Source: a virus | Direction: 5' to 3' (one strand) | DNA length: 64,000 nt | Virus record (IMG/VR): IMGVR_UViG_3300009509_000009 | Location: 1-64,000 of that record | Shown here: piece after piece, positions 16,676-62,107 of the stretch | Numbering within the stretch: position 1 is the first letter of the stretch | Layout: every line of letters begins with the position of its first letter | The notes under the pieces: generated by a model | Told to the model about the DNA's origin: nothing | Seen by the model: the letters and a program-made list of their open reading frames with translations, nothing else | Databases searched by the model: none | Made by a program: the position numbers and the translations under genes

Positions 16676-16710
16676 CAGTGTTCTTATGACGAGGTGGCTG
16701 GGTGCTTTGC
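16676..16710 (-). promoter_or_regulatory. Putative phage promoter, copy A
   Basis: GCA-N17-GTCATAAGAACACTG upstream of the 16-kb leftward operon. Confidence 0.75.
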
Positions 16711-20720: not shown

Positions 20721-22604
20721 ATGTTTGATTTCAACAGAGCACCAGCTACTCGCCCAACCATGGCCCCCGGCCGTATTCAGGGTGGCCAACGGCTCCAAGG
20801 TGTGAACTACCCGAGCCCGTTCTTCGATGTCGCTCATACGTACCTGCCAACAACCATCAAGCAGATGTTTCGGTGGTGCAGGTATTACTACCTCACCAAT
20901 CCGTTGATCGCCGCAACCGTCAACAAGATGGCGGAGTACCCGATCACTGACATCTTGGTGGACGAGGACAACAAGGGGCTGAAGCAGAAGTGGGAGGACT
21001 TCTTCGAGGACACTCTTCAGCTACGCCCATTCCTGATCGAGGCTGGTCTGTTCTACATGACCTACGGCAATGCCATGATCTCGATCAGCCATCCGTTCAT
21101 CAAGTGGCTCACATGCAAGCATTGTGGCCACAAAGTCCAGGCCAGGAAAGCTCGGTTCCAGTTCAGAGAAACGAAGTTCTTCCTGCACTGTGATCACTGC
21201 GGCACGAGCGGTGACGCCGTAGCCTTTGACCAGTACCTCAGGACTCCTCATAAGCTGAAGCTCATCCTGTGGAATCCCGAGGACATCGAGATCAGATACA
21301 ACGAGCTGACTGGGGAGACCACGTACTACTACACAGTCCCCCAGAAAACCAAGAACGAGATCACTCTGGGCAAGCGAGATGTGGTAACCACAGTCCCGCA
21401 GGTGTTCATCGACTCGGTGAAGTCCCGCAAGGCTGTAATCATTTCGCCTGACAACATCTTCCATCTCAGACGCCCGTCCATACTGACTGGCAAGAGAGAT
21501 AGAGGATGGGGTATCCCGATCATCCTTCCTGTTCTGAAGGACGTCTTCTACCTGCAGCTGATGAAGAAGGCCCAGGAGGCTATCCTACTCGAGCGCATCG
21601 TTCCTCTCACAGTGCTGTTCCCACAGCCTGGATCTGGTACATCAGACCCATTCCAGATGGTGAATCTGCAGGACTGGAAGAACCAGGTCGTCAAGGAGAT
21701 CCAGCGTTGGAGGATTGATAGGAACTACATTCCGGTCATGCCGCTGCCACTGGGCAACCAGGTTGTCGGTGGGGACGGTAGAGCTCTGCTACTCAGCCAA
21801 GAGATCAAGATCTGGAGTGATCACATCATCTCTGGAATGGGAGTGCCCAACGAGTTTGTCTTTGGTGGTCTGCAGTGGTCTGGGTCGAACGTGTCTCTCC
21901 GGATGCTCGAGAACCAGTTCATGCGGTACGTGCAGGACCTTGGAAGATTCCTCCGTATCTTCCTGGTGCCCAAGATCGCTGCGTACCTCGACTGGCCCAA
22001 GGTCAACGTCAGGTTCAAGCCGTTCAAGATGGCTGATGATCTACAGCGCAAGGCTCTGTACATGCAGCTCAACCAAGCTGGTAAGCTCAGCGATACGACA
22101 CTGCTCAACGACTGCGACTTCAATCCCGAGGATGAGGACGAGCTCATGGCCACTGAGACGGAGCGTCGTCTCGAGGCTGTCAAGAAGCAACAGCTCGCTG
22201 AGGCTGAGATCCAGGGAGAGATGGGTGTCATCCAAGCCAGGTACCAAGCCAAGGCTCAGCAAGTCATTGCTGAGGAGCAGGAGCAGATGGCCCGAGGCAC
22301 GCAGGGCACAGCTCAGGGTGAGCCTGGTGCGGAGATGGGAGGAGGCCCGGCTACAGCTCCGGAGCAGCAACCCGCTCCTCCTTCAGGAGCTCCACCTCCT
22401 CAGATGATGCCTCAGATCATTCAGAGGATGAGAGCCATGAGCCCGGACGCCCAGGTAGGTCTTCTGAAACAGATCGCTCAGAGGAATCCGGAGATGGCTA
22501 TGCAGATCGCCGAGGCACTCCAGCCAGGCGAAGAGATGACGCGCGGTGAGCCGCTGCCCGAGACTCTTCCTCCGAGGAGAGACGCGGCCAGCGCTCTGAT
22601 ATAG
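20721..22604 (+). CDS. Portal protein with Zn-ribbon insertion
   Basis: RYYYLTNPLIAATVNKMAEYP, IFHLRRP...GWGIP, MGVP..F; Gln/Pro-rich tail; 627 aa. Confidence 0.75.
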   Translation: MFDFNRAPATRPTMAPGRIQGGQRLQGVNYPSPFFDVAHTYLPTTIKQMFRWCRYYYLTNPLIAATVNKMAEYPITDILVDEDNKGLKQKWEDFFEDTLQLRPFLIEAGLFYMTYGNAMISISHPFIKWLTCKHCGHKVQARKARFQFRETKFFLHCDHCGTSGDAVAFDQYLRTPHKLKLILWNPEDIEIRYNELTGETTYYYTVPQKTKNEITLGKRDVVTTVPQVFIDSVKSRKAVIISPDNIFHLRRPSILTGKRDRGWGIPIILPVLKDVFYLQLMKKAQEAILLERIVPLTVLFPQPGSGTSDPFQMVNLQDWKNQVVKEIQRWRIDRNYIPVMPLPLGNQVVGGDGRALLLSQEIKIWSDHIISGMGVPNEFVFGGLQWSGSNVSLRMLENQFMRYVQDLGRFLRIFLVPKIAAYLDWPKVNVRFKPFKMADDLQRKALYMQLNQAGKLSDTTLLNDCDFNPEDEDELMATETERRLEAVKKQQLAEAEIQGEMGVIQARYQAKAQQVIAEEQEQMARGTQGTAQGEPGAEMGGGPATAPEQQPAPPSGAPPPQMMPQIIQRMRAMSPDAQVGLLKQIAQRNPEMAMQIAEALQPGEEMTRGEPLPETLPPRRDAASALI

Positions 22605-22605
22605 G

Positions 22606-22646
22606 ACTAAAAGAAATCGCCGGACCCGTTGGAACGAGCCCGGCGA
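22606..22646 (-). terminator. Leftward intrinsic terminator
   Basis: Long stem with two G-U pairs only on the minus strand, followed by TTTCTTTTAG. Confidence 0.75.
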
Positions 22647-22673
22647 CGTGGGGTTTCCTTGGCTACTCTTTAC

Positions 22674-22769
22674 CTACCGTTGTCGACTGGCCGTCTCTTT
22701 GACGACGAGGTAGTGGGTCACCCGGGCAAGGTAGGTGCCCACTGCAGCCAGGATGAAAAGCTCAACCAT
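22674..22769 (-). CDS. 31-aa hydrophobic peptide (not in ORF track)
   Basis: GAGGAGG RBS; MVELFILAAVGTYLARVTHYLVVKETASRQR. Confidence 0.55.
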   Translation of the reverse strand: MVELFILAAVGTYLARVTHYLVVKETASRQR

Positions 22770-22899
22770 CGTCGTCCTCCTCTTCATCGTCGTCTTGGCG
22801 ATCGTCCTGTTGTTCTTGAGCTGGTTGGCTCTGAGAACTCATGGCTAGAAGATCGTTCTCGAGGGCTGCGAAGAAATCCGGCTTGTTCCACTCTCCCAT
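22762..22899 (-). CDS. 45-aa acidic peptide (not in ORF track)
   Basis: GAAGGGG RBS; MGEWNKPDFFAALENDLLAM...DDDEEEDDDG; directly downstream of promoter copy B. Confidence 0.55.
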   Translation of the reverse strand: MGEWNKPDFFAALENDLLAMSSQSQPAQEQQDDRQDDDEEEDDDG

Positions 22900-22951
22900 A
22901 TCCAATCCCCTTCTTTTCCCTGCGAGAGTTGGAATCTAAGCTGGTGCTCTT

Positions 22952-22986
22952 CAAAGCTCTTATAACCACTAGATTGACCACCCTGC
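22952..22986 (-). promoter_or_regulatory. Putative phage promoter, copy B
   Basis: GCA-N17-GTTATAAGAGCTTTG. Confidence 0.75.
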
Positions 22987-23003
22987 GGCGAGGCTGCTAA
23001 GGT
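22974..23003 (+). promoter_or_regulatory. Possible sigma70-type promoter of the RNAP gene
   Basis: TTGACC-N18-TAAGGT with TGn extended -10; overlaps copy B on the other strand. Confidence 0.4.
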
Positions 23004-23030
23004 GAGTAGGCTGGAAACATAGGAGAAAAT

Positions 23031-26000
23031 ATGGCCCGGCTAGACCCTAGAGAGGGGTTCGAGCTCCTCAAAGACAGGGTGACTACCGAGGTGAAGGCTG
23101 CGTTCCCCCAGGAGGGGAACGATCACATTCTCGACATCGAGAATGTGGAGATCCAGGACGAGCTGGACCCCGAGGATATTGAGGGTCAGAAGAAAGCGAA
23201 GCTCGGTGGATCAACCTGGGGAGTCCCCGTGAAAGCAGAGTTCGTCTTGAAGGACAAGGCGAGCGGCAAGGTCATCAACCGAAGTAAGATCAAGGTGGCG
23301 ACGATCCCGAAGCATACTCGTCGTCATTCCTTCATAGTCGGTGGATCTGAGTACCAGGTGGACAACCAGTGGCGGTTGAAGCCCGGTATCTACACACGTG
23401 TCGCGCAGAACGGTCAGCTCGAGTCACGGTTCAACTTCCAGGGCAAGATGAACCTCGATATGATCTTCGACCCCAAGAGCAGGAAGTTTCAGCTCAAGCA
23501 CGGTGGGTCGAAGCCGCCGCTCTATCCAATACTCAAGGCGGTTGGCGTTGACGACGACGCGCTACAGCAGGCGTGGGGCAAAGAGATCCTCAACGCCAAC
23601 AAGACAACGCCGAATGGAAAGGCGCTGAACGTAGAGAAGCTAGCGATCGGTTTCGCCAAGAGACTCGATCCAAACAAAGACGTCAAGAACTTCGACGACG
23701 CTGGAGATGTCATTCGTGAATACATGGGTACGGCGGAGCTCAGACCCGACGTGACCAAGCTCACGCTAGGCAAGGAGTTCAATACCATCACGCCTGAAGC
23801 ACTCACGAGGACGTCGGGTAGACTTCTTGGTGTAGCTAGAGGCGACAAGCCAGACGTGCGGGATGCTCTGCAGTTCAAAGATCTTCTCAGCACGGAGGAC
23901 TTCATCGCTGAGCGTCTTCAGCAAAGCGCCAAGATCATCAAGCGCAGGATACAGAACAACATAGATCGAAGGACCACCGTTCGTGAGATCGTGGGGCCAG
24001 ACATTTTCGATCGACCCGTCAAAGAGTTCTTCTCGAAGACGTCGCTGGCGAATACACCTCAGCAGGTCAATCCACTCGAGATGTTGTCCGGCCAGCAGCG
24101 TACCACTATCACTGGAGAGGGTGGAGTCAAGAGCGCACACAAGATCCAAGAGGACGCAAAGCTAGTAGATCCGTCACACTTCGGTGTGCTCGACCCACTA
24201 CACACTCCGGAGTCCGACAAGACAGGAGTGACACTACACCTTGCCATGAGCGCCGTGAAGAAGGGCAACAAGGCCTTCGTCCCACTGCACAATGTCAAGA
24301 CTGGAAAGGTAGAGTATCTCGATCCAGAGACGGTCAATGAGAAGATCGTGGCAATGCCGGATGAGGGTAGGTGGGACAAGGGTAAGTGGGTGCCCAACGC
24401 GAAGAAGGTCAAGGCGAGTACGCTGGGCAATGAGATTCGAGACGTCGACTCCTCCAAGGTCCAGTACGTCATGAAGAATCCTGGTCAGATGTTCTCTCTC
24501 GCCACCAACATGGTTCCGTTCCTCTCCTGCGACTCCCCGAATAGATCATCCATGGCTGGGAAGCAGATGGAGCAGGCGATCTCGCTGAAGTATAGAGAGC
24601 CGCCTCTAGTTCAGGTAGCGCGAGGAGACGGGACCAAGAAGACCTTCGACGAGTTCGTCGGGCGATATGCCTCTCATGAATCCCCAGTTGATGGGAAGGT
24701 GACCAACATCACTGACACGTTCATGGAGGTCAAGTCGGGGCGCAAGACACACAAGGTCCAGCTGTACAAGGACTATCCCCTCAATGACAAGAAGGGTCTT
24801 CTCCAGAGTACCCCTACGGTGAAGGTAGGGGACAAGGTGATGAAAGGGCAGACTGTAGCCGATACCAACTTCACAAAGGGCGGAGTCTACGCGCCTGGAG
24901 TGAACCTCAACATCGGGTACACGCCGTGGAAGGGCTACAACTTCGAGGACGGTGTGGTGATCTCTGAGTCTGCTGCGAAGAAGCTGACTTCAGAGCACAT
25001 GCACAAGAAGACCCTGTCCACAAAGGAGGCGAAAGCTCCCGGCAAGGAAGTCTTCATGTCCCACTTTGCCAGCAGTCTGGACAAGGAGCAGGCAGAGAAG
25101 CTGGACAGAGACGGCATCATCAAGCCGGGCATGAGGATCAGAAAGGGCGACACTCTCATCGCTGCAGTGGCCGACGCCCCGCCCACTACTGAGAATCAGA
25201 TGTTCAAGAATCTCCACCGATCATTGGTGCAGCCATTCGACAACCGATCTATCACCTGGGAAGAAGACCAGGAGGGTGAAGTCGTCAATGTCACCAAGAA
25301 GGGGAAGAAGATCCAGGTTCACGTCAAGACTGAAGAGCCGATGACTGTTGGCGACAAGATGGTTGGGCGCCACGGCAATAAGGGAATCGTCACCAAGATC
25401 TTGCCAGACAACGAGATGCCGTCGACCAAAGATGGCAAGCCCCTCGAGGTGCTGATGAATCCAATCGGTATTGCTGGTCGGATGAACATCGGTCAGGTGC
25501 TTGAGACAGCAGCCTCTAAGGTAGCTGAGAAGCGCGGACGCCCGCTCAAGATCACAAACTTTGGAGTCAGTGATAGCCGCACGGAGATCGAGAATCTGCT
25601 GAAGCGGCATGGAGTATCAGATCGAGAGACCATTGTAGATCCAAAAGACGGGACGGAGATAGAGGGCATCCAGGTTGGAAAGCAGTACATCCTCAAGCTC
25701 CAACACCAAGTAGATAAGAAGATGTCTGCTCGAGACAGAGCTGGCTACGATCGTAACTTGATCCCAAAGGGCGGCGGGAAGCACGGTGCTCAGGCGCTAG
25801 GAGCTCTCGGCATGTACGCCATGTTAGCTCACGGGGCTAAGCACAACATCCGTGAGATGCAGACCTACAAGTCTGATAAGGCGCAGAACGACGATCTTTG
25901 GAGCGCCATTCAGACTGGTGAGCCACTGCCTCCTCCGAAGACTACCTTCGGGTATCAGAAGTTCGAGTCCTACCTCAAGGGAATGGGCGTCGACACGCAG

Positions 26001-29000
26001 AAGGATGGGAACTCCCTGAATCTCATACCACTGACTGACAAGCAGGTGGAGGAGATGTCTTCTGGGGAACTCAAGGATGCGGGGCGGGCTGTTCGAGGGT
26101 ACAAGATTGGATCGAAGCGCAGAGGCTCAATAGATCCTGAGAAGTCTGGTCTATTCGATCCGCAGATCACCGGGGGCTTGGATGGCACCAGGTGGTCTCA
26201 CATCAACCTAGCAGAGCCAGTGCCAAATCCACTCTTCGAGAAAGCAGTCCGTAGTCTCACCGGGATTCGTGGACCTCAGTTCAATCGTCTGATCGAAGGC
26301 AAGGACGGCGTCGATAAAGACGGAAAGATAGTTCCTCCGGGTACTCAGGGAGCTCTCTACGGTCCTCAGTCCATTGGTCTCATGCTGGATAAGGTAGACA
26401 TCAACAAGGACCTGCAGGCCGCGCAAGCGAAGCTCCCAACCATCAAGAATCGTCAGCCACTGAATGAGACACGCCGAAAGATCAAGTACCTGCAGGCCCT
26501 GCAGAAGGTTGGCCTGTCCCCTCGTGAAGCGTACATGACCTCGAAGGTTCCAGTTCTTCCTCCAGCGATGAGGCCTCTATCAATGCTCGAGGACGGAGCT
26601 CTGCAGTTCGATGATCTCAACCAGCTCTACAAGGACGTGGCCCTACTTGATCAGCAGATCAAGGAGATGCCCAGCTTCGCGCCAGACAGCGCGAAGGCAG
26701 AGGCTAGGGCTGACGTATACGATCGGATGAAGGCCCTAACTGGTCTTGGTGGCTCCCTCAAGGGAAGGTACAAGGGGATAGCCGACATCATAGCCGGAGA
26801 CAATCCGAAAAGTGGTTACGCCCAGGACAAGCTGATCAAGAGGAAGATGGACCTGTCCATGAGGTCCACTATCGTGCCCGAGCCTTCATTGTCCTTGGAC
26901 GAAGTAGCCATTCCTCGCAAGGCAGCTATGGAGATCTACAAGCCCTTCATCGTCAGGGAGCTCCGTATGTCCACGGGTTCCGGACCTCTCACTGCCAAGG
27001 AGATGGTGGAGGCCAATCACCCGGCTGCTCGGGAGGCCCTGAACCGAGTGGTTGAGGAGCGACCCCTCCTCATGAAGCGCGACCCAGTACTCCACAAGTA
27101 CGGCATTCAGGCCTTCAAGCCTAAGATCGTAGAGGGCAAGGCCATCAAGATACACCCCCTTGTGTGCTCCGGATTCAACGCAGACTTCGACGGGGACACC
27201 ATGAGCGCCACAGTACCCATCACCGAGGAGGCTGTGGATGAAGCCCGAAAGATGTTTCCGTCGAAGATGCTGTTCAATCCAGCCACCAAGGGAGTCATGT
27301 ACACGCCGGCCCATGAAGCTCAGGTTGGTCTCTACATGATGACGGACGTAAAGAAGAAAACGAACTACCAGTTCAAAGATCAAGCCGCCCTCGAGCGCGC
27401 AGTGAAAGAGAAGAAGCTGGGTCCTAATGATGCTGCCAAAGTAGGCGGGAACTTCACAACACTAGATCGGTTGAGGCTCAACGCCACCCTGCCAACACAA
27501 CTGCAGGGAGGAAAGCTGCTCACTGATCTAGACTACCGCTTTACCAAGAAGGACCAGGGTCAGTTCTTCAAGCAGATGGCAGAGACGGACGAGAAGGGTT
27601 TCCCGATCAACATAGATAAGATGAAGGACGTGGGAAACCTGAAGGTCACTCATGGAGGGTTCAGCTTCGGGCTCAGTGACTTCAAAGTACACAAGGACAT
27701 TCGAGATCCGATCATGCGTGAGGCGGATAGGAGAGCGTCAGCTCTGGATTTGTCCAAGAAGAACGACATGAACAAGTTCGTCGACATCTATGAAGGTGCG
27801 ATGACCAAGATGAAGGATCGGCTGGATGTCAGAGTCAAGGAGCTCAGCACAAAGAACTCTTTGGCAATGCTCGAGACGGCAGCTGGGATCAAGGGTAAAG
27901 GGTACGCCCAGCTCACCACAGCTCCAGGTCTGTTCGTTGACGCAAAGGGAGAGGTAGTCGCCAGTCCAGTGAGGAAGTCGTACTCTGAGGGTCTCTCCGC
28001 TTCTGACTACTGGGCGTCAGTGAGCGGTGGACGCAAAGGAATCATCCAGCGAACGCAGTCTACAGCCAAGCCAGGCTATCTCACCAAGCTCATGATGAAC
28101 TCGGTGATGGACACCTTGGTGCAGGAGGACGACTGCGGTACCGATCGTGGGGTCAGTCTCAACATAGATGAACCAGACCTTATCGGTAGGTACACTACGG
28201 CCCCAATAAAGATCGGAAGCACGACGTTCAAGCCAGGAACTCTGGTCACTGCTGACATCGTCAACAAGGCCAAGAATGCTAAGGTCACCAGGATCGTTAG
28301 CCGATCTCCGATGCGTTGCAATCACGCACACGGCGTATGCGCGAAGTGCATGGGGCTCAACGAGAGAGGAGAGCACCACGGGCTCGGAACCAACATCGGC
28401 GTGCTGGCTGCCCAGGCTATCGGAGAGCGCGGAACCCAGCTCGCTATGAAGGCGTTCCACTCAGGCGGGGTGTACGAGGGTAAAGCCGCGCAGGAGAGGT
28501 CGATCACTGGTGGTGGGTTCGAGCGCGCCGTCACTCTGCTCTCCATGCCGAAGCAAGTGAAGGGATCTGCCAAGCTGGCTATCGCTTCTGGTAAGGTAGA
28601 GGCGGTGAAGAAAGATCCAGCGGGTGGGTTCGATGTGAAGATAGGCGGCGTCAAGCACTACATTCCTGCTGATCGTACACCGCTACCCGATCTGAAGAAG
28701 GGTAAGGCTTTCCGAAAAGGTGATCCTCTGACTAAGGGTCCTATCAATCCGAGGGAGCTGCTTCCTCTTACCAACATGAACAAGGTCCAGGGATACCTGG
28801 CTTCGGAGCTACACAGTCTCTATGCCCCAGAAGGAATCAGACGTAGAAACTCCGAGGTCCTCGTCAGGTCACTATCCAACGTCACCAAGGTCGAGGACTC
28901 TGGAGATAGCTCGTCGTGGATCAGGGGAGACTTTGCTCCGACTGCTGTAGTCAACGAGTGGAATCGTAAGAACGCCAAGCGCGGGCTGAAACCTGTACAG

Positions 29001-29213
29001 CACACGCCAGTTCTTCGTGGGGTCAAGACTATCCCCGAAGATGTGCAGACAGATTGGCTAGCCCGATTGAATCATGAGAACATCAGGTCTACCCTAGTAG
29101 AAGCGGCACAACAGGGTTGGGCGAGTAATCTTCACGGTGATCACCCAATCCCGCCGATGATCGTGGGTAAGGAGTTCGGCAAGGGAACAAAGGATAAGCC
29201 CTGGTCGTACTAA
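23031..29213 (+). CDS. rpoBC: Single-chain DNA-directed RNA polymerase, fused bacterial-type beta and beta' subunits
   Basis: Beta motifs GYNFEDG, GDKMVGRHGNKG, NPIGIAGRMNIGQ, KLQHQV; beta' motifs RSTIVP, RDPVLH, GFNADFDGD, GGRKG...AKPGYLT, DCGT/CNHAHGVCAKC, AAQAIGERGTQLAMKAFHSGG. Confidence 0.97.
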   Translation: MARLDPREGFELLKDRVTTEVKAAFPQEGNDHILDIENVEIQDELDPEDIEGQKKAKLGGSTWGVPVKAEFVLKDKASGKVINRSKIKVATIPKHTRRHSFIVGGSEYQVDNQWRLKPGIYTRVAQNGQLESRFNFQGKMNLDMIFDPKSRKFQLKHGGSKPPLYPILKAVGVDDDALQQAWGKEILNANKTTPNGKALNVEKLAIGFAKRLDPNKDVKNFDDAGDVIREYMGTAELRPDVTKLTLGKEFNTITPEALTRTSGRLLGVARGDKPDVRDALQFKDLLSTEDFIAERLQQSAKIIKRRIQNNIDRRTTVREIVGPDIFDRPVKEFFSKTSLANTPQQVNPLEMLSGQQRTTITGEGGVKSAHKIQEDAKLVDPSHFGVLDPLHTPESDKTGVTLHLAMSAVKKGNKAFVPLHNVKTGKVEYLDPETVNEKIVAMPDEGRWDKGKWVPNAKKVKASTLGNEIRDVDSSKVQYVMKNPGQMFSLATNMVPFLSCDSPNRSSMAGKQMEQAISLKYREPPLVQVARGDGTKKTFDEFVGRYASHESPVDGKVTNITDTFMEVKSGRKTHKVQLYKDYPLNDKKGLLQSTPTVKVGDKVMKGQTVADTNFTKGGVYAPGVNLNIGYTPWKGYNFEDGVVISESAAKKLTSEHMHKKTLSTKEAKAPGKEVFMSHFASSLDKEQAEKLDRDGIIKPGMRIRKGDTLIAAVADAPPTTENQMFKNLHRSLVQPFDNRSITWEEDQEGEVVNVTKKGKKIQVHVKTEEPMTVGDKMVGRHGNKGIVTKILPDNEMPSTKDGKPLEVLMNPIGIAGRMNIGQVLETAASKVAEKRGRPLKITNFGVSDSRTEIENLLKRHGVSDRETIVDPKDGTEIEGIQVGKQYILKLQHQVDKKMSARDRAGYDRNLIPKGGGKHGAQALGALGMYAMLAHGAKHNIREMQTYKSDKAQNDDLWSAIQTGEPLPPPKTTFGYQKFESYLKGMGVDTQKDGNSLNLIPLTDKQVEEMSSGELKDAGRAVRGYKIGSKRRGSIDPEKSGLFDPQITGGLDGTRWSHINLAEPVPNPLFEKAVRSLTGIRGPQFNRLIEGKDGVDKDGKIVPPGTQGALYGPQSIGLMLDKVDINKDLQAAQAKLPTIKNRQPLNETRRKIKYLQALQKVGLSPREAYMTSKVPVLPPAMRPLSMLEDGALQFDDLNQLYKDVALLDQQIKEMPSFAPDSAKAEARADVYDRMKALTGLGGSLKGRYKGIADIIAGDNPKSGYAQDKLIKRKMDLSMRSTIVPEPSLSLDEVAIPRKAAMEIYKPFIVRELRMSTGSGPLTAKEMVEANHPAAREALNRVVEERPLLMKRDPVLHKYGIQAFKPKIVEGKAIKIHPLVCSGFNADFDGDTMSATVPITEEAVDEARKMFPSKMLFNPATKGVMYTPAHEAQVGLYMMTDVKKKTNYQFKDQAALERAVKEKKLGPNDAAKVGGNFTTLDRLRLNATLPTQLQGGKLLTDLDYRFTKKDQGQFFKQMAETDEKGFPINIDKMKDVGNLKVTHGGFSFGLSDFKVHKDIRDPIMREADRRASALDLSKKNDMNKFVDIYEGAMTKMKDRLDVRVKELSTKNSLAMLETAAGIKGKGYAQLTTAPGLFVDAKGEVVASPVRKSYSEGLSASDYWASVSGGRKGIIQRTQSTAKPGYLTKLMMNSVMDTLVQEDDCGTDRGVSLNIDEPDLIGRYTTAPIKIGSTTFKPGTLVTADIVNKAKNAKVTRIVSRSPMRCNHAHGVCAKCMGLNERGEHHGLGTNIGVLAAQAIGERGTQLAMKAFHSGGVYEGKAAQERSITGGGFERAVTLLSMPKQVKGSAKLAIASGKVEAVKKDPAGGFDVKIGGVKHYIPADRTPLPDLKKGKAFRKGDPLTKGPINPRELLPLTNMNKVQGYLASELHSLYAPEGIRRRNSEVLVRSLSNVTKVEDSGDSSSWIRGDFAPTAVVNEWNRKNAKRGLKPVQHTPVLRGVKTIPEDVQTDWLARLNHENIRSTLVEAAQQGWASNLHGDHPIPPMIVGKEFGKGTKDKPWSY

Positions 29214-29223
29214 GGAGACTGTC

Positions 29224-29616
29224 ATGGATGATCAACTGTACAAGGAAGCCATGTACTCTGGATTCTTCGACGAGCTCGGACTGCTCGAGAAGCAACAGAT
29301 GTTCGAGAAGCAGGCTGCGGGTCTTGGTACCTTAGTCAAGGGCTTCCGTCAGCTGGGCAAGGATCCGACGAAGGCCCTCGGTGGTGTTCGTAGAGCCTGG
29401 GAGGTCGGTGTTCGTAGAGGAGCTGGTCTGGGTAGAGGACAGGCTGGGCCTCTCCAGGGAGGCGTGGCGAACAGACTCCGCCAGGCGTGGGGTGGCGTGA
29501 AGAACGTCGCCAAGACACCGGCGGGCCAAGCTATTGGAGCTACGGCGCTGGGCGCCGGAGCGCTGGGCGCCGGGGCCGTGGGAACTGGGTACGCTGCTGG
29601 CCGTGCTCAGGGTTAG
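29224..29616 (+). CDS. Small Gly-rich protein with FFDEL...EKQAA leader
   Basis: AAGGAG RBS; amphipathic basic segment, C-terminal GAGALGAGAVG zipper. Confidence 0.65.
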   Translation: MDDQLYKEAMYSGFFDELGLLEKQQMFEKQAAGLGTLVKGFRQLGKDPTKALGGVRRAWEVGVRRGAGLGRGQAGPLQGGVANRLRQAWGGVKNVAKTPAGQAIGATALGAGALGAGAVGTGYAAGRAQG

Positions 29617-29626
29617 TGAGTCCTGA

Positions 29627-30799
29627 GTGCCACGAGCTCAAGCAAACTCGATCGCTCAGAGCGGTCTGAATACTCCCAGCATTGAGGAGGGCCGTATCGT
29701 CAACGTCGACATGGCCAACTTTACTGCTGACGTGAAAACAAAGACCAGCCAGAGACAGTTGATCGACGTACAGTGGTCCAGCCCTTACATGCACTTCGCC
29801 AAGGGTGAGGGGATCAACTTCATGCCAGAGGTGGGGGCGATCTGTAAGGTCTGTATGCCGAGTGACGGTACCCCGTTCATCATGTGCTTTGTCACTACCT
29901 TCGAGCGCGAGCGACCAGCCGATGGTCAGGACTCTGAAACGACTCTGCATCCTGACAGCACCGAGAGTCAGGAGTCTCCTGCTGAGGTTACGTTCCGATC
30001 TGGCAGAGCCAAGATGGAACAGGGTGACATACACCTCAGTACCAGAGACGGCAACGCTCTGTGGCTGCACAGGGGAGGTGTAGTCGAGCTCGGAGCGAAC
30101 GGTATAACGAAACGGTTCTACATCCCACTACTCAACACGATCCGTGATGTCTGCGAGAACTATGATATGGTCTCGCTGGCAGGAGAGATGAGCTGGACAG
30201 TCTCCAGGGATGACAGGAACGCTTCTGGTGATGCTGAGGCCGCGTTCACGCTTGCTTCGAGGAACTTTGCTCAGGATGAATTCGCCACGGTCTTCCTCCG
30301 AGTTGGGCACGTTGACGATACCAAGAGGTTCCAGCTCCTCATCGCTCCGAACCGCATCAACCCCAGGACTGGAGAGGTCGACGGGGATGTAGTCTACTCA
30401 GTGGAGATCGATGAAGAGGGAAACCTCGACGTCACCGTCAAGAAGAAGGCTACGATCAATATTCAAGACGAGCTGGCTCTCACTGTGAGCGGGGACGCCA
30501 ACCTCACGTTCAGCTCAAATCTCAACGAGACGATCAGCGGTGACAGGGATACCCAGATCTCAGGGAACCACTCTATGCAGGCTACCGGCAGCACAGAGAG
30601 GCTGTCAGCGGACAAGACAATCGACGCTCCAAGGATCAAGCTCGGTGGTAGCGCCATGTATCCGGTGTTGATCATGAGCCCAGCTACCGTCTCATTCCTG
30701 ATGGGGCATACCCATCCGGTCACTGGTGCTGCTACTGGCCCGCCTGTTGCGACGACCAGCCCCAACATGATGACCGCTAGAAAGACGGTGGCTGAGTAA
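29627..30799 (+). CDS. Baseplate central spike (gpV/gp5/VgrG-like)
   Basis: OB-fold motif GINFMPEVGA, beta-helix-like repeats, C-terminal HTHP iron-binding tip motif. Confidence 0.75.
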   Translation: MPRAQANSIAQSGLNTPSIEEGRIVNVDMANFTADVKTKTSQRQLIDVQWSSPYMHFAKGEGINFMPEVGAICKVCMPSDGTPFIMCFVTTFERERPADGQDSETTLHPDSTESQESPAEVTFRSGRAKMEQGDIHLSTRDGNALWLHRGGVVELGANGITKRFYIPLLNTIRDVCENYDMVSLAGEMSWTVSRDDRNASGDAEAAFTLASRNFAQDEFATVFLRVGHVDDTKRFQLLIAPNRINPRTGEVDGDVVYSVEIDEEGNLDVTVKKKATINIQDELALTVSGDANLTFSSNLNETISGDRDTQISGNHSMQATGSTERLSADKTIDAPRIKLGGSAMYPVLIMSPATVSFLMGHTHPVTGAATGPPVATTSPNMMTARKTVAE

Positions 30800-35542: not shown

Positions 35543-35577
35543 CAAAGAGCTTATAACCAGGAAGTGTGGTAAGATCA
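35543..35577 (-). promoter_or_regulatory. Putative phage promoter, copy C
   Basis: GTTATAAGCTCTTTG; the upstream GCA is replaced by TGA. Confidence 0.65.
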
Positions 35578-35582
35578 GTTCG

Positions 35583-37376
35583 ATGTCAGCCATTCTAGAA
35601 GATGTTAGGACTCCCAGGATCGAGCCACGGTTCGACTTGGACCTTGAAGACGAGCTCATTGATAGCTTCATTGATCCTGATGAAGAAGCTGAGATGGCCG
35701 AGCTTGACGCTATCATAGATGGCGTTGCTTACAAGCCTCCTGAGAGTCAGCTACCAGAGATCACTCCCTCTGAATTTACAGAGTTCGCCATCAGGATACC
35801 GGTGAAGGGTGACCTCGAGAGGTTCAGCTTCGAGGGCCGTGAGTACCTGCGTGAGATCTATGACACACCAGCTCGCCGCATACTCATGAAGTGTGGGCGT
35901 CAGACAGAGAAGTCTACCACTCTGGGGAACAAGTGCCTGGCGTACTGTGGGATCAACGGCAACTTCAATGTGCTGTACGTCAGCGCAACTGCCCAGCAAG
36001 CTCAGGTCTTTTCGGTAGACCGGATCAAGAACGTGATCGAGACCTCACCAGAGTTCGCTCATCTGGTCGACAGGAAGCTCCAGCAGAACGTTCTCTTCAA
36101 GCAGTTCAAAAACAGATCCAACATCAGAATCAGGTACGCCTTCCTGTCTGCAGACCGCGTTCGTGGTATTCCAGCAGACAAGATCTTGATCGATGAGATC
36201 CAGGACATCATCACCGATAACATACCAGTCATTGAGGCATGCGCCTTCCACTCTGACTGGAAGATCTTCTGCTACTCAGGCACTCCAAAGAGTCTGGATA
36301 ATACGATCGAGGTATACTGGGCGGACTTCAGCACGCAGAACGAGTGGGTAGTTCCGTGCGAGGCCTGTGGCGGTACCAGCCGTCGTAAGGACACCTGGCA
36401 CTGGAACATTCTCGGATCAAGGAACATCGGTAAGAAAGGTCTGGTGTGCGCCAAGTGCAAGAGATCGATCAACCCGAGACACCCAGACGCGCAGTGGTCA
36501 TCCAGGCAGCCAATAACGAAGGAAAATAGGAACCGAGTATCATTCGAGGGCTATCGAATTCCTCAGCTGATGGTACCGTGGGTAGACTGGGAAGAGGTAC
36601 TGTCTGCTCGTGAGCGATTCTCCACAGCTCAGTTCAACAACGAGGTCCTCGGACTGTCATACGATTCTGGCGTACGACCGCTCACAAGGGCACAGATCAA
36701 GTCGTGTTGCAAGGAAGAGATACACTTCACTGACCTAGAAGAGAATGCCCGCAAGTGCCACGGTGGAGTGTTCGCTGGTATCGACTGGGGTACTGGGGAG
36801 AATACCTACACAGTCATCTCACTTGGCGGTTACATGGGAGGATCGTTCCAGATATTCTTCTGCCACCGCTTCACTGGTGACGATCTTGAACCCAGAATGC
36901 AGCTGGATAAGATCGCCAAGCTGCTTCACGCAGTGAGGTTCAGGTGCTGTGGTGCTGACTACGGCGGAGGCTTCGACAAGAACGATTGGCTGATGAGAAA
37001 CTTCGGCCCAACAAAGTTCGTCAAGTTTCAGTACGCTCCGAACCCGAGTAAGAAGATCTACTGGCAGCCGAAGCTCGGCCGCTACATCGCCCACCGCACC
37101 GAGATCATGAGCGACATTTTCAACGCTCTCAAGCGTAAGCAGATCTGGCTGCCCAACTGGGAGGAGTTTGTCACTCCGCATGGAGAGGACATCCTCAACA
37201 TCTTCAGTGAGTGGAACGCCCAGCTCAGAATGCTGCAGTACAAGGTTAGCCCAGGGAAGACAGACGACACCTTCCACTCGATTCTATACTGCATGCTTGC
37301 CTCTATGATCGGCGGGAAGATGAGACCAGATATTCTGGTTCCAGTTCGTGAGGGCGACGTCCTGTTTCATGGTTAG
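35583..37376 (+). CDS. terL: Terminase large subunit (lambda gpA-like features)
   Basis: Walker A CGRQTEKST, Walker B ILIDE, SGTP, CEAC/CAKC, FNNEVLG, nuclease GIDWG and DD.FH. Confidence 0.9.
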   Translation: MSAILEDVRTPRIEPRFDLDLEDELIDSFIDPDEEAEMAELDAIIDGVAYKPPESQLPEITPSEFTEFAIRIPVKGDLERFSFEGREYLREIYDTPARRILMKCGRQTEKSTTLGNKCLAYCGINGNFNVLYVSATAQQAQVFSVDRIKNVIETSPEFAHLVDRKLQQNVLFKQFKNRSNIRIRYAFLSADRVRGIPADKILIDEIQDIITDNIPVIEACAFHSDWKIFCYSGTPKSLDNTIEVYWADFSTQNEWVVPCEACGGTSRRKDTWHWNILGSRNIGKKGLVCAKCKRSINPRHPDAQWSSRQPITKENRNRVSFEGYRIPQLMVPWVDWEEVLSARERFSTAQFNNEVLGLSYDSGVRPLTRAQIKSCCKEEIHFTDLEENARKCHGGVFAGIDWGTGENTYTVISLGGYMGGSFQIFFCHRFTGDDLEPRMQLDKIAKLLHAVRFRCCGADYGGGFDKNDWLMRNFGPTKFVKFQYAPNPSKKIYWQPKLGRYIAHRTEIMSDIFNALKRKQIWLPNWEEFVTPHGEDILNIFSEWNAQLRMLQYKVSPGKTDDTFHSILYCMLASMIGGKMRPDILVPVREGDVLFHG

Positions 37377-38158: not shown

Positions 38159-38193
38159 CAATGATCTTATGACTGGAGGAAGGTCGGTTTTGC
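38159..38193 (-). promoter_or_regulatory. Putative phage promoter, copy D
   Basis: GCA-N17-GTCATAAGATCATTG. Confidence 0.75.
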
Positions 38194-46093: not shown

Positions 46094-47218
46094 ATGAGTG
46101 TTCCCGCAAGAGTGTTGAACGAGCTCTTCTCCCAGAAACTCTCCACAGGAGAGGGCAAGGAGAAGATCGCTGAGTACGGTGGCGCTTACATCCGAGACAG
46201 GCTGCGTGAGGTTTCGTACGCTCGCCAGATCCTGCCGCCGGAGAACGTCACCAGAACCGACTGCCAACGGTCAGTCAACCACGACACCCTCGTGAAGGTC
46301 ATCGACGTGGAGCCGGAGAGCCGGGCCATGGCGATCACCTTCCGTGGTCAGCCCACCGCGCGGTTCATCCGTGCGCCCCGTGCCGAGGTTCCCTTCTTCA
46401 CGATCTCCTCGGAGAAATTCGAGAAGACCGAGCAGGAGCTCCTCGCGTACGAGATGCCCATCACCAAGGTCATCGAGGACAACACGGTGAAGGACATCCA
46501 AGAGGTGGAGGACCGTGAGTTCACGATCCACATCGAGGCTGCCGTCCAGGCCCTTCAGGCCGAGGCGAACAGCGCCGCCACCTCTCCCGAGCTGTCCTCG
46601 AACACCATCGGGACCACCGTCGAGTTCTCGGTCACGAAGGGTGAGATCGCTCGCAACTTCACCGGGACCCCCGACGCCACGGTCCATCCGCTTCAGAGGC
46701 CGGACATCGTTCGTCTCTGCAAGCTCCTCGATGGGAATCGGCTCCGCTCGGAGCGGATCCTCATGACCGAGGTGGAGTTCGACGACATCAACCAGTGGAC
46801 CGTCGAAGACTTCGGCGACAAGATGCAGTCCGAGACCACCGTCGACGGGTACAAGTACTCGACGCTGTTGGGCAAGGCGTTCGTCCGCACGATCAAGACG
46901 GACATCCTCCGCCCCGGCAACGTGTACGTGTTCACTCGTCCCGAGTTCTTCGGGAAGTTCTACATCCTCAACCAGGTGAAGTTCTACATCGACAAGATTG
47001 CGAACCTGATCACCTGGCAGTCCTGGGAAGACATCGCCATGTCGGTGATCAACATCGCTTCGGTGCGGAAGCTCGAGCTCTACTCGGCCGACGCCTCGAA
47101 TGCCGACGCCCAGGGCCTCAGGGATGCGAACTTCATCCCGGTGATCGAGGAGGACCTCGGCGCGATCAACAACCGCGTCGATAAGGGATGGGTGTTCCCG
47201 CAGGTGCAGAGCTTCTAG
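46094..47218 (+). CDS. Major capsid protein (HK97 fold inferred)
   Basis: 374 aa; IRDRLREVSYARQILPP, KDIQEVEDREF; extreme G/C3 codon bias; follows protease/scaffold/decoration; followed by a terminator. Confidence 0.8.
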   Translation: MSVPARVLNELFSQKLSTGEGKEKIAEYGGAYIRDRLREVSYARQILPPENVTRTDCQRSVNHDTLVKVIDVEPESRAMAITFRGQPTARFIRAPRAEVPFFTISSEKFEKTEQELLAYEMPITKVIEDNTVKDIQEVEDREFTIHIEAAVQALQAEANSAATSPELSSNTIGTTVEFSVTKGEIARNFTGTPDATVHPLQRPDIVRLCKLLDGNRLRSERILMTEVEFDDINQWTVEDFGDKMQSETTVDGYKYSTLLGKAFVRTIKTDILRPGNVYVFTRPEFFGKFYILNQVKFYIDKIANLITWQSWEDIAMSVINIASVRKLELYSADASNADAQGLRDANFIPVIEEDLGAINNRVDKGWVFPQVQSF

Positions 47219-54330: not shown

Positions 54331-55166
54331 CGACTGGTTCCGTCCAGACCTCGAGGTTCAGCTTCGAGAATATGATCAGTTGGGACGAGAATCCACTGTT
54401 TGTGGCGACACGCACCTGCATTGTGTTCCTGCAGTCCCTGTTCTCCTACGCTCCGAAAGGACAATTTCACTGGAGCGAGGATGACGAGCTCTCCGACATC
54501 ATCATCACCGACGATGCTCCCATCAAGCAGGAGGTCGTCGAGAAAAGACCTACGATTGTTACTGTCAGATCGGCAACGGCTTTCGCAGGCATCGGACTGG
54601 ATCAGCTTGCGTACCTCGATCTCAAGACGGGGGCTGAGGCACACACTGATCTGATCTCAGGAAATCTAACCTTCAACTGCATGTCTCGGGTAAAGGTTCA
54701 GGCCGAGTACCTTGGGTGGCAGGTAGCCAGGCACATCTGGTTGTTCAAGCACTACCTAATGAAGCAAGGCTTTCATAAGATCGGTGAACAGATTCAGATG
54801 CTGTCCCCATCTCCACCAAAGGCTCTCATTCAAGGAGATACGGAATCCGAGATTGTCAACGTAGCCATCATTGTTCCATTCCACTTTCAGTGGCAGGACA
54901 TCATCGCTGAAGAGGATCTCACAGTGATGCAGGCTGTGGAGACGAACATGCAGGTGTTCATGAAGGACGTTATCAGGCCCGATACTACCACCCGTCTTCC
55001 CTTACGGGGCACGGCCCCGTATGCTGTAAGAGACGTGTACAAGAGCGGTAAGATACAACCGCCCTCAATCAGGGGGCGTCGCATGGTCCCGGTTCAGTAT
55101 CCGGGCTCCCAGCCATCTGATCCGCCACTGTCGTTCACCGTGAAGACCGGTGAGGTTGGGGAATAG
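54327..55166 (+). CDS. Putative tail terminator/completion protein
   Basis: Immediately upstream of sheath; KRPTIVTVR motif. Confidence 0.5.
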   Translation: MTTGSVQTSRFSFENMISWDENPLFVATRTCIVFLQSLFSYAPKGQFHWSEDDELSDIIITDDAPIKQEVVEKRPTIVTVRSATAFAGIGLDQLAYLDLKTGAEAHTDLISGNLTFNCMSRVKVQAEYLGWQVARHIWLFKHYLMKQGFHKIGEQIQMLSPSPPKALIQGDTESEIVNVAIIVPFHFQWQDIIAEEDLTVMQAVETNMQVFMKDVIRPDTTTRLPLRGTAPYAVRDVYKSGKIQPPSIRGRRMVPVQYPGSQPSDPPLSFTVKTGEVGE

Positions 55167-55176
55167 GAGAGGACCA

Positions 55177-62072: not shown

Positions 62073-62107
62073 CAAAGATCTTATTACTAGGGACGATCTA
62101 CTTTTTC
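62073..62107 (-). promoter_or_regulatory. Putative phage promoter, copy E
   Basis: GAA-N17-GTAATAAGATCTTTG. Confidence 0.7.

What the first reader, a model, noticed from the sequence alone, without database searches (positions are those of the whole stretch)
23031..29213. Compact single-chain beta-beta' RNA polymerase of bacterial type inside the virion gene cluster
Seen: one 2060-aa ORF with all catalytic motifs in cellular order. The beta C-terminus (FESYLKGMGVD) runs into the beta' start (LNLIPLTDKQVEEMSSGELK) near nt 26000 with almost no linker. It is several hundred aa shorter than E. coli beta plus beta', and no alpha, omega or sigma gene is recognisable in the window. Known: phiKZ-like phage RNAPs are split and highly diverged, and natural rpoBC fusions occur in Helicobacter and Wolbachia. 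Inference: a minimised, possibly alpha-independent enzyme that may be packaged to drive early transcription.
Basis: partly seen in the sequence, partly recalled or inferred. Interest (0 to 1): 0.82.

Follow-up and report, generated by a model that had tools for sequence, protein, structure and literature searches.

The report
Single-chain bacterial-type phage RNA polymerase
An uncultured sediment phage encodes both large subunits of a bacterial-type RNA polymerase as one trimmed 2,060-residue protein among its particle genes; hundreds of related phages share this layout and carry their own sigma factor, and a cultured relative appears to pack the enzyme into the virus particle.

Summary
Window 23031-29213 (+) is one 2,060-aa frame with a complete beta module (1-988), a 7-residue linker and a complete beta' module (996-2060). 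All catalytic elements are present. The fusion is not an artefact: independent assemblies bridge it, and 77 of 78 intein-free homologue clusters have the same 7-residue linker.

"Minimised" mostly means absence of the lineage-specific inserts SI1, SI2 and SI3. The beta' zinc ribbon is also missing, family-wide.

The window is part of a 79.7-kb contig estimated 43% complete, so "no sigma here" says little. In 14 of 15 near-complete relatives (167-195 kb) a ~255-aa sigma70-family gene lies elsewhere. None has alpha or omega, and each has one RNAP locus. The gene sits between the portal gene and a gp5-like tail gene across the family.

In the cultured relative Salmonella phage Arash, the homologous RNAP and sigma were among the most abundant proteins in particle mass spectrometry.

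Best reading: a sigma-dependent, probably alpha-less, single-chain phage RNAP, probably virion-borne. No paper found in the library searched describes this fused family. The published phage RNAP clade (mReC) has separate genes and different capsid and terminase families. This scan found the same family earlier on other genomes.

The parts
23031..29213 (+). Whole gene for the single-chain beta-beta' RNA polymerase (2,060 aa plus stop); RBS AGGAG at 23021-23025
   Evidence: The N-terminus MARLxPxEGF and the C-terminus KPxxY match the family consensus.
23031..25994 (+). Beta module (residues 1-988). It lacks the counterparts of E. coli beta 1-26, 227-347 (SI1), 934-1037 (SI2) and 1126-1179.
   Evidence: MAFFT map against E. 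coli rpoB and bacterial beta sequences; BLASTP; Pfam Rpb2_3, Rpb2_6, Rpb2_7.
24027..24116 (+). Counterpart of the rifampicin-pocket cluster I (residues 333-362). E. coli Q513, D516, H526 and S531 correspond to N341, Q344, G354 and T359.
   Evidence: BLASTP alignment. The roles of the E. coli residues come from established knowledge of rpoB resistance mutations. Rifampicin insensitivity is an inference.
25182..25223 (+). Flap-tip-helix counterpart (about residues 718-731, TENQMFKNLHRSL), the sigma region 4 docking element; SI2 is absent just after it.
   Evidence: Alignment to E. coli beta 880-934. The function is taken from knowledge of bacterial RNAP.
25365..25385 (+). Beta active-site motif GRHGNKG (residues 779-785)
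25995..26015 (+). Seven-residue linker TQKDGNS (residues 989-995) between the beta C-terminal strand (GMGVD) and the first beta' strand (LNLIPL)
   Evidence: Same length in 77 of 78 homologue clusters, with conserved K-x-G-N. Modelled as the turn of a beta-hairpin, pLDDT 77-93. Spanned without indels by contigs of three runs.
26016..29210 (+). Beta' module (residues 996-2060). It lacks the counterparts of E. coli beta' 68-99 (zinc ribbon), 125-140, 553-569, 706-719, 943-1124 (SI3) and 1386-1407.
   Evidence: MAFFT map; BLASTP 30% identity over 881 columns; best PDB sequence matches are bacterial beta' chains, E 2.5e-105; Foldseek E 1e-30.
26151..26198 (+). Site of the missing beta' N-terminal zinc ribbon (residues 1041-1056, LFDPQITGGLDGTRWS; no cysteine)
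   Evidence: 32-aa gap against E. coli beta' 68-99; 0 cysteines in this region in 78 of 78 family clusters.
26607..26738 (+). Clamp-helices (coiled-coil) counterpart, residues about 1193-1236, the sigma region 2 docking element
   Evidence: Alignment to E. coli beta' 255-315; two long helices in the model. The function is taken from knowledge of bacterial RNAP.
27177..27197 (+). Catalytic Mg-binding motif NADFDGD (residues 1383-1389)
   Evidence: invariant in the 40-sequence alignment.
27990..28100 (+). Bridge-helix counterpart (about residues 1654-1690)
   Evidence: Alignment to E. coli beta' about 769-805.
28302..28358 (+). Retained second zinc site, RSPMRCNHAHGVCAKCMG, together with the upstream EDDCG cysteine
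   Evidence: Alignment to E. coli beta' C814, C888, C895 and C898; the cysteines are nearly invariant in the family.
28398..28520 (+). Trigger-loop counterpart (AAQAIGERGTQLAMKAFHSGG and onward), without an SI3 insert
20721..22604 (+). Portal gene upstream of the RNAP gene, about 430 nt away (context)
   Evidence: phrog_64, E 1.5e-6. Homologue directly upstream of the RNAP gene in 28 related loci, and likewise in Arash and Vibrio phage D69.
29627..30799 (+). gp5-like baseplate-hub / tail-spike gene about 400 nt downstream, after a 130-aa ORF (context)
   Evidence: PHROG baseplate families; Gp5_trimer_C, weak; homologue directly downstream in 57 of 67 related loci.

Best explanation
The ORF encodes a catalytically competent phage RNA polymerase. 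The bacterial beta and beta' subunits are joined in the cellular order by a fixed 7-residue turn. The proposed mechanism has five steps.

1. The chain folds into the usual crab-claw core, with both double-psi beta-barrels, the bridge helix and the trigger loop. This follows from the sequence.
2. Promoter recognition is supplied by a phage-encoded ~255-aa sigma70-family factor (regions 2, 3 and 4). It docks on the retained clamp helices and flap-tip helix. The gene is seen in relatives; for this phage it must lie on the unassembled part of the genome. This step is inferred.
3. The covalent tether replaces the assembly-scaffold role of the alpha dimer, so no alpha or omega is needed. This is inferred from their absence in 15 relatives.
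4. The enzyme is made with the particle proteins, packed into the head with sigma, and ejected with the DNA. It then starts host-independent, probably rifampicin-insensitive, early transcription. This is inferred from the Arash particle proteome, the gene position and the altered rifampicin-pocket residues.
5. Newly made enzyme continues transcription, since each related genome has only this one RNAP.
For: Intact ORF with all motifs and domain order. Length is tightly conserved at 2031-2078 aa in 78 clusters at 46-86% identity; 42 more clusters carry intein-sized inserts. The linker is 7 aa in 77 of 78 clusters. In a library of 50%-identity representatives, 218 clusters match a 180-aa junction-spanning query at E<=1e-30 and 884 at E<=1e-10, and nearly all of the best 150 run through the junction. 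Assemblies of three runs span the junction without indels. A sigma70-family protein occurs in 14 of 15 relatives: Sigma70_r3 in 14 of 14 members, r4 in 8 of 14, and profile hits to SigA/RpoD structures at E 8e-15. It is homologous to the Arash sigma and to Vibrio phage genes. No alpha or omega was found. Each of 15 relatives has one RNAP locus. Arash particle LC-MS: Gp206 had 3516 spectra (the top protein), Gp216 1210 and sigma Gp10 467 (PMC10585845). Portal-RNAP-gp5-like synteny is conserved. In a tree of the beta module the phage sequences form one group (100 SH-aLRT) apart from the sampled bacteria.
Against: Nothing has been measured for this phage. Its sigma is not on the contig. The Arash preparation was only sucrose-gradient purified and 116 proteins were called particle proteins, so abundant non-structural proteins may have carried over; the authors say so themselves. 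No extra N- or C-terminal domain that could serve as a packaging signal is visible. Host alpha and omega could still bind, and their contact surfaces were not tested. The phage sigma could instead redirect host RNAP, as in T4 or SPO1. A highly diverged alpha-like or omega-like protein would escape Pfam models.
Confidence: 0.6

Rival explanations
1. The enzyme is a functional single-chain phage RNAP but is not packaged. It is made after infection and transcribes middle and late genes, while host RNAP reads the early genes, as with a non-virion RNAP. Its place among particle genes only reflects late co-expression, and the Arash mass-spectrometry signal is carry-over of an abundant protein.
For: 116 of about 272 Arash proteins were scored as particle proteins after only a sucrose gradient, and the authors raise carry-over themselves. 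No packaging or targeting extension is seen. There is one RNAP per genome, whereas phiKZ-like phages use a separate virion enzyme.
Against: The RNAP was the single most abundant Arash protein by spectra, above the major capsid protein (3516 against 1333), and the sigma was found too. The position between the portal and a tail-spike-like gene is kept in 57 of 67 loci spanning 39-62% identity.
Confidence: 0.27
2. The single chain still needs host subunits. It assembles with the host alpha dimer, and perhaps omega, after ejection or synthesis. It would then be a replacement for the two large subunits only, not a self-sufficient core.
For: The beta and beta' modules are near-complete apart from lineage-specific inserts, so the alpha-contact regions may persist. 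Cellular rpoBC fusions (Helicobacter, Wolbachia) still use alpha; this is from established knowledge.
Against: The family spans many habitats and presumably hosts, at 25-30% identity to bacterial subunits, which makes conserved docking of diverse host alphas less likely. Other phage multisubunit-type RNAPs (phiKZ, AR9) work without alpha; this is from established knowledge and PMC7598289.
Confidence: 0.2
3. The fusion is an artefact (mis-assembly or frameshift), or the gene is a recently captured host rpoBC.
For: None found.
Against: Contigs of three runs span the junction with no indel. More than 150 clusters at 50% identity match through the junction. The linker length is fixed. Identity to bacterial enzymes is only 25-30% and the sequences form a separate tree group. 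G+C content matches the neighbouring DNA.
Confidence: 0.01

Closest known systems
RNAP of Salmonella phage Arash (Gp206 + Gp216, with sigma Gp10; PMC10585845) and of Vibrio phages D69, D148 and D181
   Same: The beta-beta' junction is fused (Gp206 covers query residues 15-1472 at 33% identity). Portal-adjacent position, a homologous sigma (30% identity, E 2e-20), ~180-187 kb myophage genomes and one RNAP per genome are all shared. These phages fall in the same tree group as the query.
   Different: In those phages the chain is broken at about query residue 1472 into a 1525-aa and a ~609-aa protein, sometimes with homing endonuclease genes nearby. The window's gene is continuous. The Arash paper annotates the two genes as 'beta' and 'beta-prime' and does not note the fusion; no biochemistry is reported.
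mReC, the multimeric-RNAP-encoding Caudovirales (Weinheimer & Aylward 2020, PMC7481178); a cultured phage that looks alike is Cobetia phage Carin-5
   Same: Tailed phages, many of 100-200 kb, with beta and beta' still recognisable by cellular HMMs; the phage RNAPs group apart from cellular ones; Carin-5 has a sigma gene next to the RNAP genes.
   Different: In the part of the paper's Supplementary Data 2 that was read (43 phage contigs in 47 rows), beta and beta' are separate genes of about 900-1400 aa. No phage protein of the six ~2,050-aa lengths searched for appears in its tables. mReC capsid and terminase match PF07068 and PF03237; here the MCP has no PF07068 match and TerL is PF05876. Carin-5 has the order sigma-beta'-beta, only 23-27% identity, and falls outside the fused-junction group on a long branch.
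Cellular rpoB-rpoC fusions (Helicobacter, Wolbachia) and the artificial E. coli beta-beta' tether
   Same: Beta is joined to beta' in the same order. This exploits the closeness of the beta C-terminus and beta' N-terminus (established knowledge). The junction is modelled here as a hairpin.
   Different: Those are full-size cellular enzymes of about 2,900 aa with alpha, omega and housekeeping sigma. Here the protein has 2,060 aa, no zinc ribbon, no SI inserts, a phage genome context and no alpha or omega in relatives.
phiKZ / AR9-type jumbo-phage virion and non-virion RNAPs (PMC7598289, PMC7824862)
   Same: Phage-encoded relatives of beta and beta' that work without alpha; one set is virion-packaged for early transcription.
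   Different: Those are split into 4-5 polypeptides, are highly diverged, have no sigma-family factor and come as two enzyme sets per genome. Here there is one chain with strong Pfam matches, a sigma70-family partner and one set per genome.
crAss-like phage gp66 and N4 vRNAP (virion-packaged single-chain RNAPs)
   Same: A large single polypeptide that is packaged and ejected to transcribe early genes. This is the working model proposed here.
   Different: gp66 has no HMM-detectable similarity to beta or beta', and N4 vRNAP is T7-like. The enzyme here is plainly bacterial-type and probably sigma-dependent.

Membership tests
Bacterial-type RNAP catalytic core (beta + beta' homologues) | Beta' NADFDGD Mg site, beta GRHGNKG and the double-psi barrels, bridge helix and trigger loop, in cellular domain order | tested here: met
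   best PDB sequence matches are bacterial beta' chains, E 2.5e-105.
Bacterial-type RNAP catalytic core (beta + beta' homologues) | Beta' N-terminal zinc ribbon (four cysteines) | tested here: not met
   A 32-aa gap lies opposite E. coli beta' 68-99; 0 cysteines in this region in 78 of 78 family clusters.
Bacterial-type RNAP catalytic core (beta + beta' homologues) | Partner alpha dimer and omega encoded in the same genome | tested here: not met
   No PF01000, PF01193 or PF01192 match above the cut-off in the contig or in 15 near-complete relatives. Use of host alpha is not testable with these tools.
Bacterial-type RNAP catalytic core (beta + beta' homologues) | Sigma70-family initiation factor and its docking elements (clamp helices, flap tip) | tested here: inconclusive
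   The docking elements are retained. A sigma is present in 14 of 15 relatives but not on this 43%-complete contig. Binding was not tested.
Fused-junction phage RNAP family (Arash / Vibrio D69 and uncultured 167-195 kb phages) | Covalent beta-beta' junction with a short conserved linker | tested here: met
Fused-junction phage RNAP family (Arash / Vibrio D69 and uncultured 167-195 kb phages) | Groups with family members in a tree, apart from bacteria | tested here: met
   Beta-module trees: the phage group has 100 and 99 SH-aLRT, and the full-length fused subgroup 99. Bacterial sampling was limited.
Fused-junction phage RNAP family (Arash / Vibrio D69 and uncultured 167-195 kb phages) | Gene lies between the portal gene and a gp5-like tail gene | tested here: met
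Fused-junction phage RNAP family (Arash / Vibrio D69 and uncultured 167-195 kb phages) | Presence of the enzyme in the virus particle | not testable with these tools
   The only evidence is the published Arash LC-MS.
mReC (Weinheimer & Aylward 2020) | Separate beta and beta' genes on a Caudovirales contig | tested here: not met
   Here there is one fused gene. All phage rows in the part of Supplementary Data 2 that was read list two genes.
mReC (Weinheimer & Aylward 2020) | Major capsid protein of the PF07068 / VOG11186 type and TerL of the PF03237 type | tested here: not met
   The MCP (46094-47218) has no Pfam match and hits phrog_2522. TerL matches PF05876 at 55 bits, and PF03237 at 16.6 bits is below its cut-off of 22.
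mReC (Weinheimer & Aylward 2020) | Placement inside the mReC clade of the RNAP tree | tested here: inconclusive
The stand-in Carin-5 falls outside the fused group, but on a very long branch.
phiKZ / AR9-type phage RNAPs | Beta and beta' each split into several polypeptides; no sigma; two sets per genome | tested here: not met
   the family description is.

The most novel reading that the evidence does not exclude
These phages carry a complete, self-sufficient bacterial-type holoenzyme inside the capsid: one 230-kDa beta-beta' chain plus its own sigma, with no alpha or omega. They eject it with the DNA. This would be the first sigma-dependent virion RNAP and the smallest natural bacterial-type core. 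It would show that the alpha scaffold can be replaced by a 7-residue tether.
Probability: 0.4. Interest if true: 0.8.

Novelty: new variant of a known kind. Interest (0 to 1): 0.62.

Why it matters
If the model holds, this is a naturally minimised bacterial-type RNA polymerase made of one chain plus one sigma. It would be easy to express and suited to structural work. It would allow a direct test of what alpha, omega and the beta' zinc ribbon contribute in cellular enzymes.

It would also add a third route to host-independent early transcription in phages, beside the T7/N4-type and the phiKZ/crAss-type enzymes. The lineage is very common in sediment, soil and water metagenomes.

Cultured relatives (Salmonella phage Arash; Vibrio phages D69, D148 and D181) make the key experiments feasible now.

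The family also shows unusual plasticity of chain breaks. The beta-beta' junction stays fused in nearly all relatives, while the chain is broken at about residues 470, 1100 or 1470 in different branches. Inteins sit in the most conserved motifs. This bears on how RNAP subunit boundaries evolve.

Tried and rejected
- Assembly artefact or frameshift: rejected.
- Recent capture of a host rpoBC: rejected; identity to bacterial enzymes is 25-30% and the sequences form a separate group.
- Membership of the published mReC clade: not supported. The gene layout, capsid family and terminase family all differ.
- Sigma, alpha or omega in the window or contig: none found. This is uninformative for sigma because the contig is 43% complete.
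- The 123-aa + strand ORF at 22629-23000 as a small RNAP partner: it has no homologue in 67 related loci and a low-complexity Arg-rich translation, so it is probably spurious.
- The 130-aa ORF at 29224-29616: conserved only in the closest relatives, and no family match.
- The 15-nt motif as a family-wide promoter: absent from four complete relatives.
- Host assignment: the genome-contig scan gave only a 2-kb contig binned into a Myxococcota MAG, which is not usable.
- RNA evidence: no RNA holder is listed among the sequencing runs.
- Foldseek on the junction model only returned ordinary bacterial beta' chains.
- Alpha-contact surfaces could not be evaluated without complex modelling.
- Literature searches for a description of a fused bacterial-type phage RNAP found none in the library searched.

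Full report
**Observation.** The window holds a single ATG-started ORF at 23031-29213 (+) of 2,060 codons. An AGGAG lies 5 nt upstream of the ATG. Pfam finds Rpb2_3, Rpb2_6 (E 9e-61) and Rpb2_7, followed by Rpb1_1, Rpb1_2 (E 2e-27) and Rpb1_5 (E 5e-21). That is beta and then beta' in cellular order. G+C content matches the neighbouring DNA.

**Context.** The window is the first 64 kb of a 79,665-bp IMG/VR viral contig that CheckV rates 43% complete. The gene lies among particle genes: portal 20721-22604, a gp5/baseplate-hub-like gene 29627-30799, TerL 35583-37376, major head protein 46094-47218 and sheath 55150-58602.

**The fusion is real and conserved.**
- The word-indexed protein search returned 120 listed clusters at 46-86% identity.
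- Of these, 78 are 2031-2078 aa long. The other 42 are longer and carry LAGLIDADG, Hint or intein domains.
- Across the 78 intein-free clusters the stretch between GV[DN] and L-x-L-x-P is 7 residues in 77 cases, with a conserved K-x-G-N.
- A 180-residue junction-spanning query was run against 1.84 billion 50%-identity representatives. It found 1037 clusters at E<=1e-3, 884 at E<=1e-10 and 218 at E<=1e-30. Nearly all of the best 150 align straight through the junction.
- Near-identical DNA occurs in runs of seven studies: marine sediment, soil, freshwater and others.
- Logan contigs of four runs from four studies were laid on the gene. Contigs of three of them span nt 25995-26015 with no indel, and only one of those three runs is not flagged as a possible source of this DNA.
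- An AlphaFold2 model of residues 761-1450, built with a 40-sequence alignment, reached pLDDT 74.5. It places the last beta strand and the first beta' strand in a hairpin whose turn is the linker, with pLDDT 77-93. Foldseek matches bacterial beta' chains at E 1e-30.

**What "compact" means.** The map below comes from MAFFT profile alignments with E. coli rpoB and rpoC (locus L078) and other bacterial sequences. The names of the E. coli regions come from established knowledge of that enzyme.
- The beta module lacks E. coli beta 1-26, 227-347 (SI1), 934-1037 (SI2) and 1126-1179.
- The beta' module lacks E. coli beta' 68-99 (the zinc ribbon), 125-140, 553-569, 706-719, 943-1124 (SI3) and the last 22 residues.
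- So 407 of the 689 missing residues are the three lineage-specific inserts SI1, SI2 and SI3.
- Against an 1123-aa Syntrophomonadaceae beta, only the N-terminal 26 residues and short segments are missing.
- The distinctive trim is the beta' zinc ribbon: no cysteine occurs there in any of the 78 family clusters.
- The second zinc site, the bridge helix and the trigger loop (with its histidine) are retained. So are the flap-tip helix and the clamp helices, which are the two sigma docking elements.
- In the rifampicin pocket, E. coli Q513, D516, H526 and S531 align with N341, Q344, G354 and T359. I infer from this that the enzyme is insensitive to rifampicin.

**Partners.**
- The contig has no Sigma70_r2, Sigma70_r4, alpha or omega match. 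It is, however, less than half a genome.
- Fifteen related IMG/VR records are 167-195 kb long. Fourteen are at least 90% complete and four have terminal repeats.
- A ~255-aa protein is present in 14 of the 15. All 14 copies match Sigma70_r3 and 8 match Sigma70_r4. Their profile hits SigA, RpoD and RpoS structures at E down to 8e-15.
- In the closest complete relative (G002, 61% RNAP identity) this gene lies about 55 kb from the RNAP gene. At that spacing the window's copy could lie beyond the contig's near end, only 23 kb from the gene, if the orientation is the same.
- The same protein is homologous to the annotated sigma of Salmonella phage Arash (30% identity, E 2e-20) and to genes of Vibrio phages D69, D148 and D181.
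- A few relatives have extra ECF-like sigmas of about 190 aa.
- No relative has an alpha (PF01000, PF01193) or omega (PF01192) match above the cut-off, although the control genomes all do.
- Every relative has exactly one RNAP locus.

**Relatives and the evolution of the layout.** The nearest cultured phages are Vibrio phages D69, D148 and D181 (187 kb) and Salmonella phage Arash (181 kb), at about 32-34% identity. Their first RNAP gene (1525-1527 aa) covers query residues 15-1472. The beta-beta' junction is therefore fused there too, and the remaining ~609 aa of beta' is a separate gene.

Shorter metagenomic relatives show other break points. One form breaks at about residue 1100: a 1095-1132-aa protein holding beta plus the first 100 residues of beta', partnered with a ~1011-aa protein. 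Another form breaks at about residues 470 and 1470. Only P0129 and P0132 (and P0123, on a 4.4-kb contig) look split at the canonical boundary.

In maximum-likelihood trees of the beta module, all these phage sequences form one group (100 and 99 SH-aLRT) separated from the sampled bacteria by a long branch. The full-length fused proteins form a subgroup (99) that includes the query. Arash and D69 group with the "beta+100" forms.

The simplest reading is that the junction fusion is ancestral to this phage lineage and that the chain was later broken elsewhere. Intein-sized inserts in relatives sit at the most conserved motifs: about residues 392, 630, 780-790, 940-948, 1056, 1390 (NADFDGD), 1772 and 1805-1820. 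The window's gene has none.

**Function.** Sucrose-gradient-purified Arash particles were analysed by LC-MS. Gp206 was the most abundant protein (3516 spectra; the major capsid protein had 1333). Gp216 had 1210 spectra and the sigma Gp10 had 467 (PMC10585845). The authors propose a role in early transcription but also note possible carry-over. Indeed, 116 proteins were scored as particle proteins.

Independent of that study, the gene's position is conserved. A portal homologue lies directly upstream in 28 related loci, and the gp5-like gene lies directly downstream in 57 of 67. Arash and D69 also have the portal close upstream.

I therefore favour a virion-borne, sigma-dependent, alpha-less enzyme that starts transcription on ejected DNA and, after new synthesis, carries on. 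My estimates are: functional phage RNAP about 0.9, packaged about 0.6, alpha-independent about 0.5. The main rival is a non-packaged middle/late enzyme. Dependence on host alpha is a second open point.

**Comparison with the literature.** The published clade of phage bacterial-like RNAPs is mReC (PMC7481178).
- In the part of its Supplementary Data 2 that I read (43 phage contigs in 47 rows), beta and beta' are separate genes.
- Its tables hold no phage protein of the six ~2,050-aa lengths I searched for.
- Its text mentions fusion only for crAss-like phages.
- mReC capsids and terminases belong to PF07068 and PF03237. Here the MCP has no PF07068 match and TerL is PF05876.
- Cobetia phage Carin-5 resembles mReC. 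Its genes run sigma, beta' (1083 aa), beta (927 aa); identity to the query is 23-27%, and it falls outside the fused group on a long branch.

Reviews of jumbo-phage RNAPs and a 2026 jumbo-phage review do not mention this layout. Targeted text searches found no description either.

I therefore rate the finding a new variant of a known kind: a phage-encoded multisubunit-type RNAP combined with an rpoBC-type fusion. It is visible in databases and partly annotated, but not described as such in the library searched. This scan has already reported the same family on other genomes, with the same conclusions.

Noticed in passing
window 16676-16690, 22952-22966, 35543-35557, 38159-38173, 62073-62087 (all on the - strand): The 15-nt motif GTNATAAGNNCNNTG occurs 5 times against 0.01 expected by chance. 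One copy lies 65 nt upstream of the RNAP ATG but points leftward. It is a candidate lineage-specific promoter of the leftward units. It is absent from four complete relatives (G001, G002, G003, G005).
   Followed up: partly
window 22605-23030: The 123-aa + strand ORF (22629-23000, TTG start) between the portal and the RNAP genes is Arg-rich and has no homologue in 67 related loci, so it is probably spurious. Two tiny - strand ORFs lie downstream of the motif copy: 22762-22905 (47 aa, acidic tail) and 22674-22787 (37 aa, hydrophobic). Neither has a homologue in the related loci.
   Followed up: partly
relatives P0006-P0120 (no locus in the window): About a third of the family's RNAP genes carry one to four intein-sized inserts (LAGLIDADG / Hint domains). 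They sit at the most conserved motifs, at query positions of about 392, 630, 780-790, 940-948, 1056, 1390 (NADFDGD), 1772 and 1805-1820. The window's gene has none.
   Followed up: partly
relatives P0127, P0133-P0159; L001 (Arash); L002 (Vibrio phage D69): The chain break points differ between branches (about residues 470, 1100 or 1470), while the canonical beta-beta' junction stays fused. P0129, P0132 and P0123 may be true splits at the canonical junction, but this could not be checked.
   Followed up: partly
L071-L074, L093, L094 (relatives G001, G005, G006, G009): Some relatives carry extra sigma70-family genes besides the core ~255-aa sigma: ECF-like genes of about 190 aa, and one of 397 aa. 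They may drive temporal switching of transcription.
   Followed up: no
PMC7481178, Supplementary Data 2: Two mReC contigs of 277 and 308 kb, and one of 149 kb, each list two different beta / beta' gene pairs. This recalls the virion plus non-virion RNAP pairs of phiKZ-like phages.
   Followed up: no
L096 (JBMOIG010000394.1, 2,007 bp): A 2-kb contig binned into a Myxococcota MAG encodes the first ~300 residues of a family member (39% identity). It is probably a mis-binned phage fragment and is not host evidence.
   Followed up: no
window 25500-26500: Near-identical DNA is held by runs from seven studies labelled marine sediment, soil, sediment and freshwater metagenomes, so this phage or very close kin is widespread.
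   Followed up: partly
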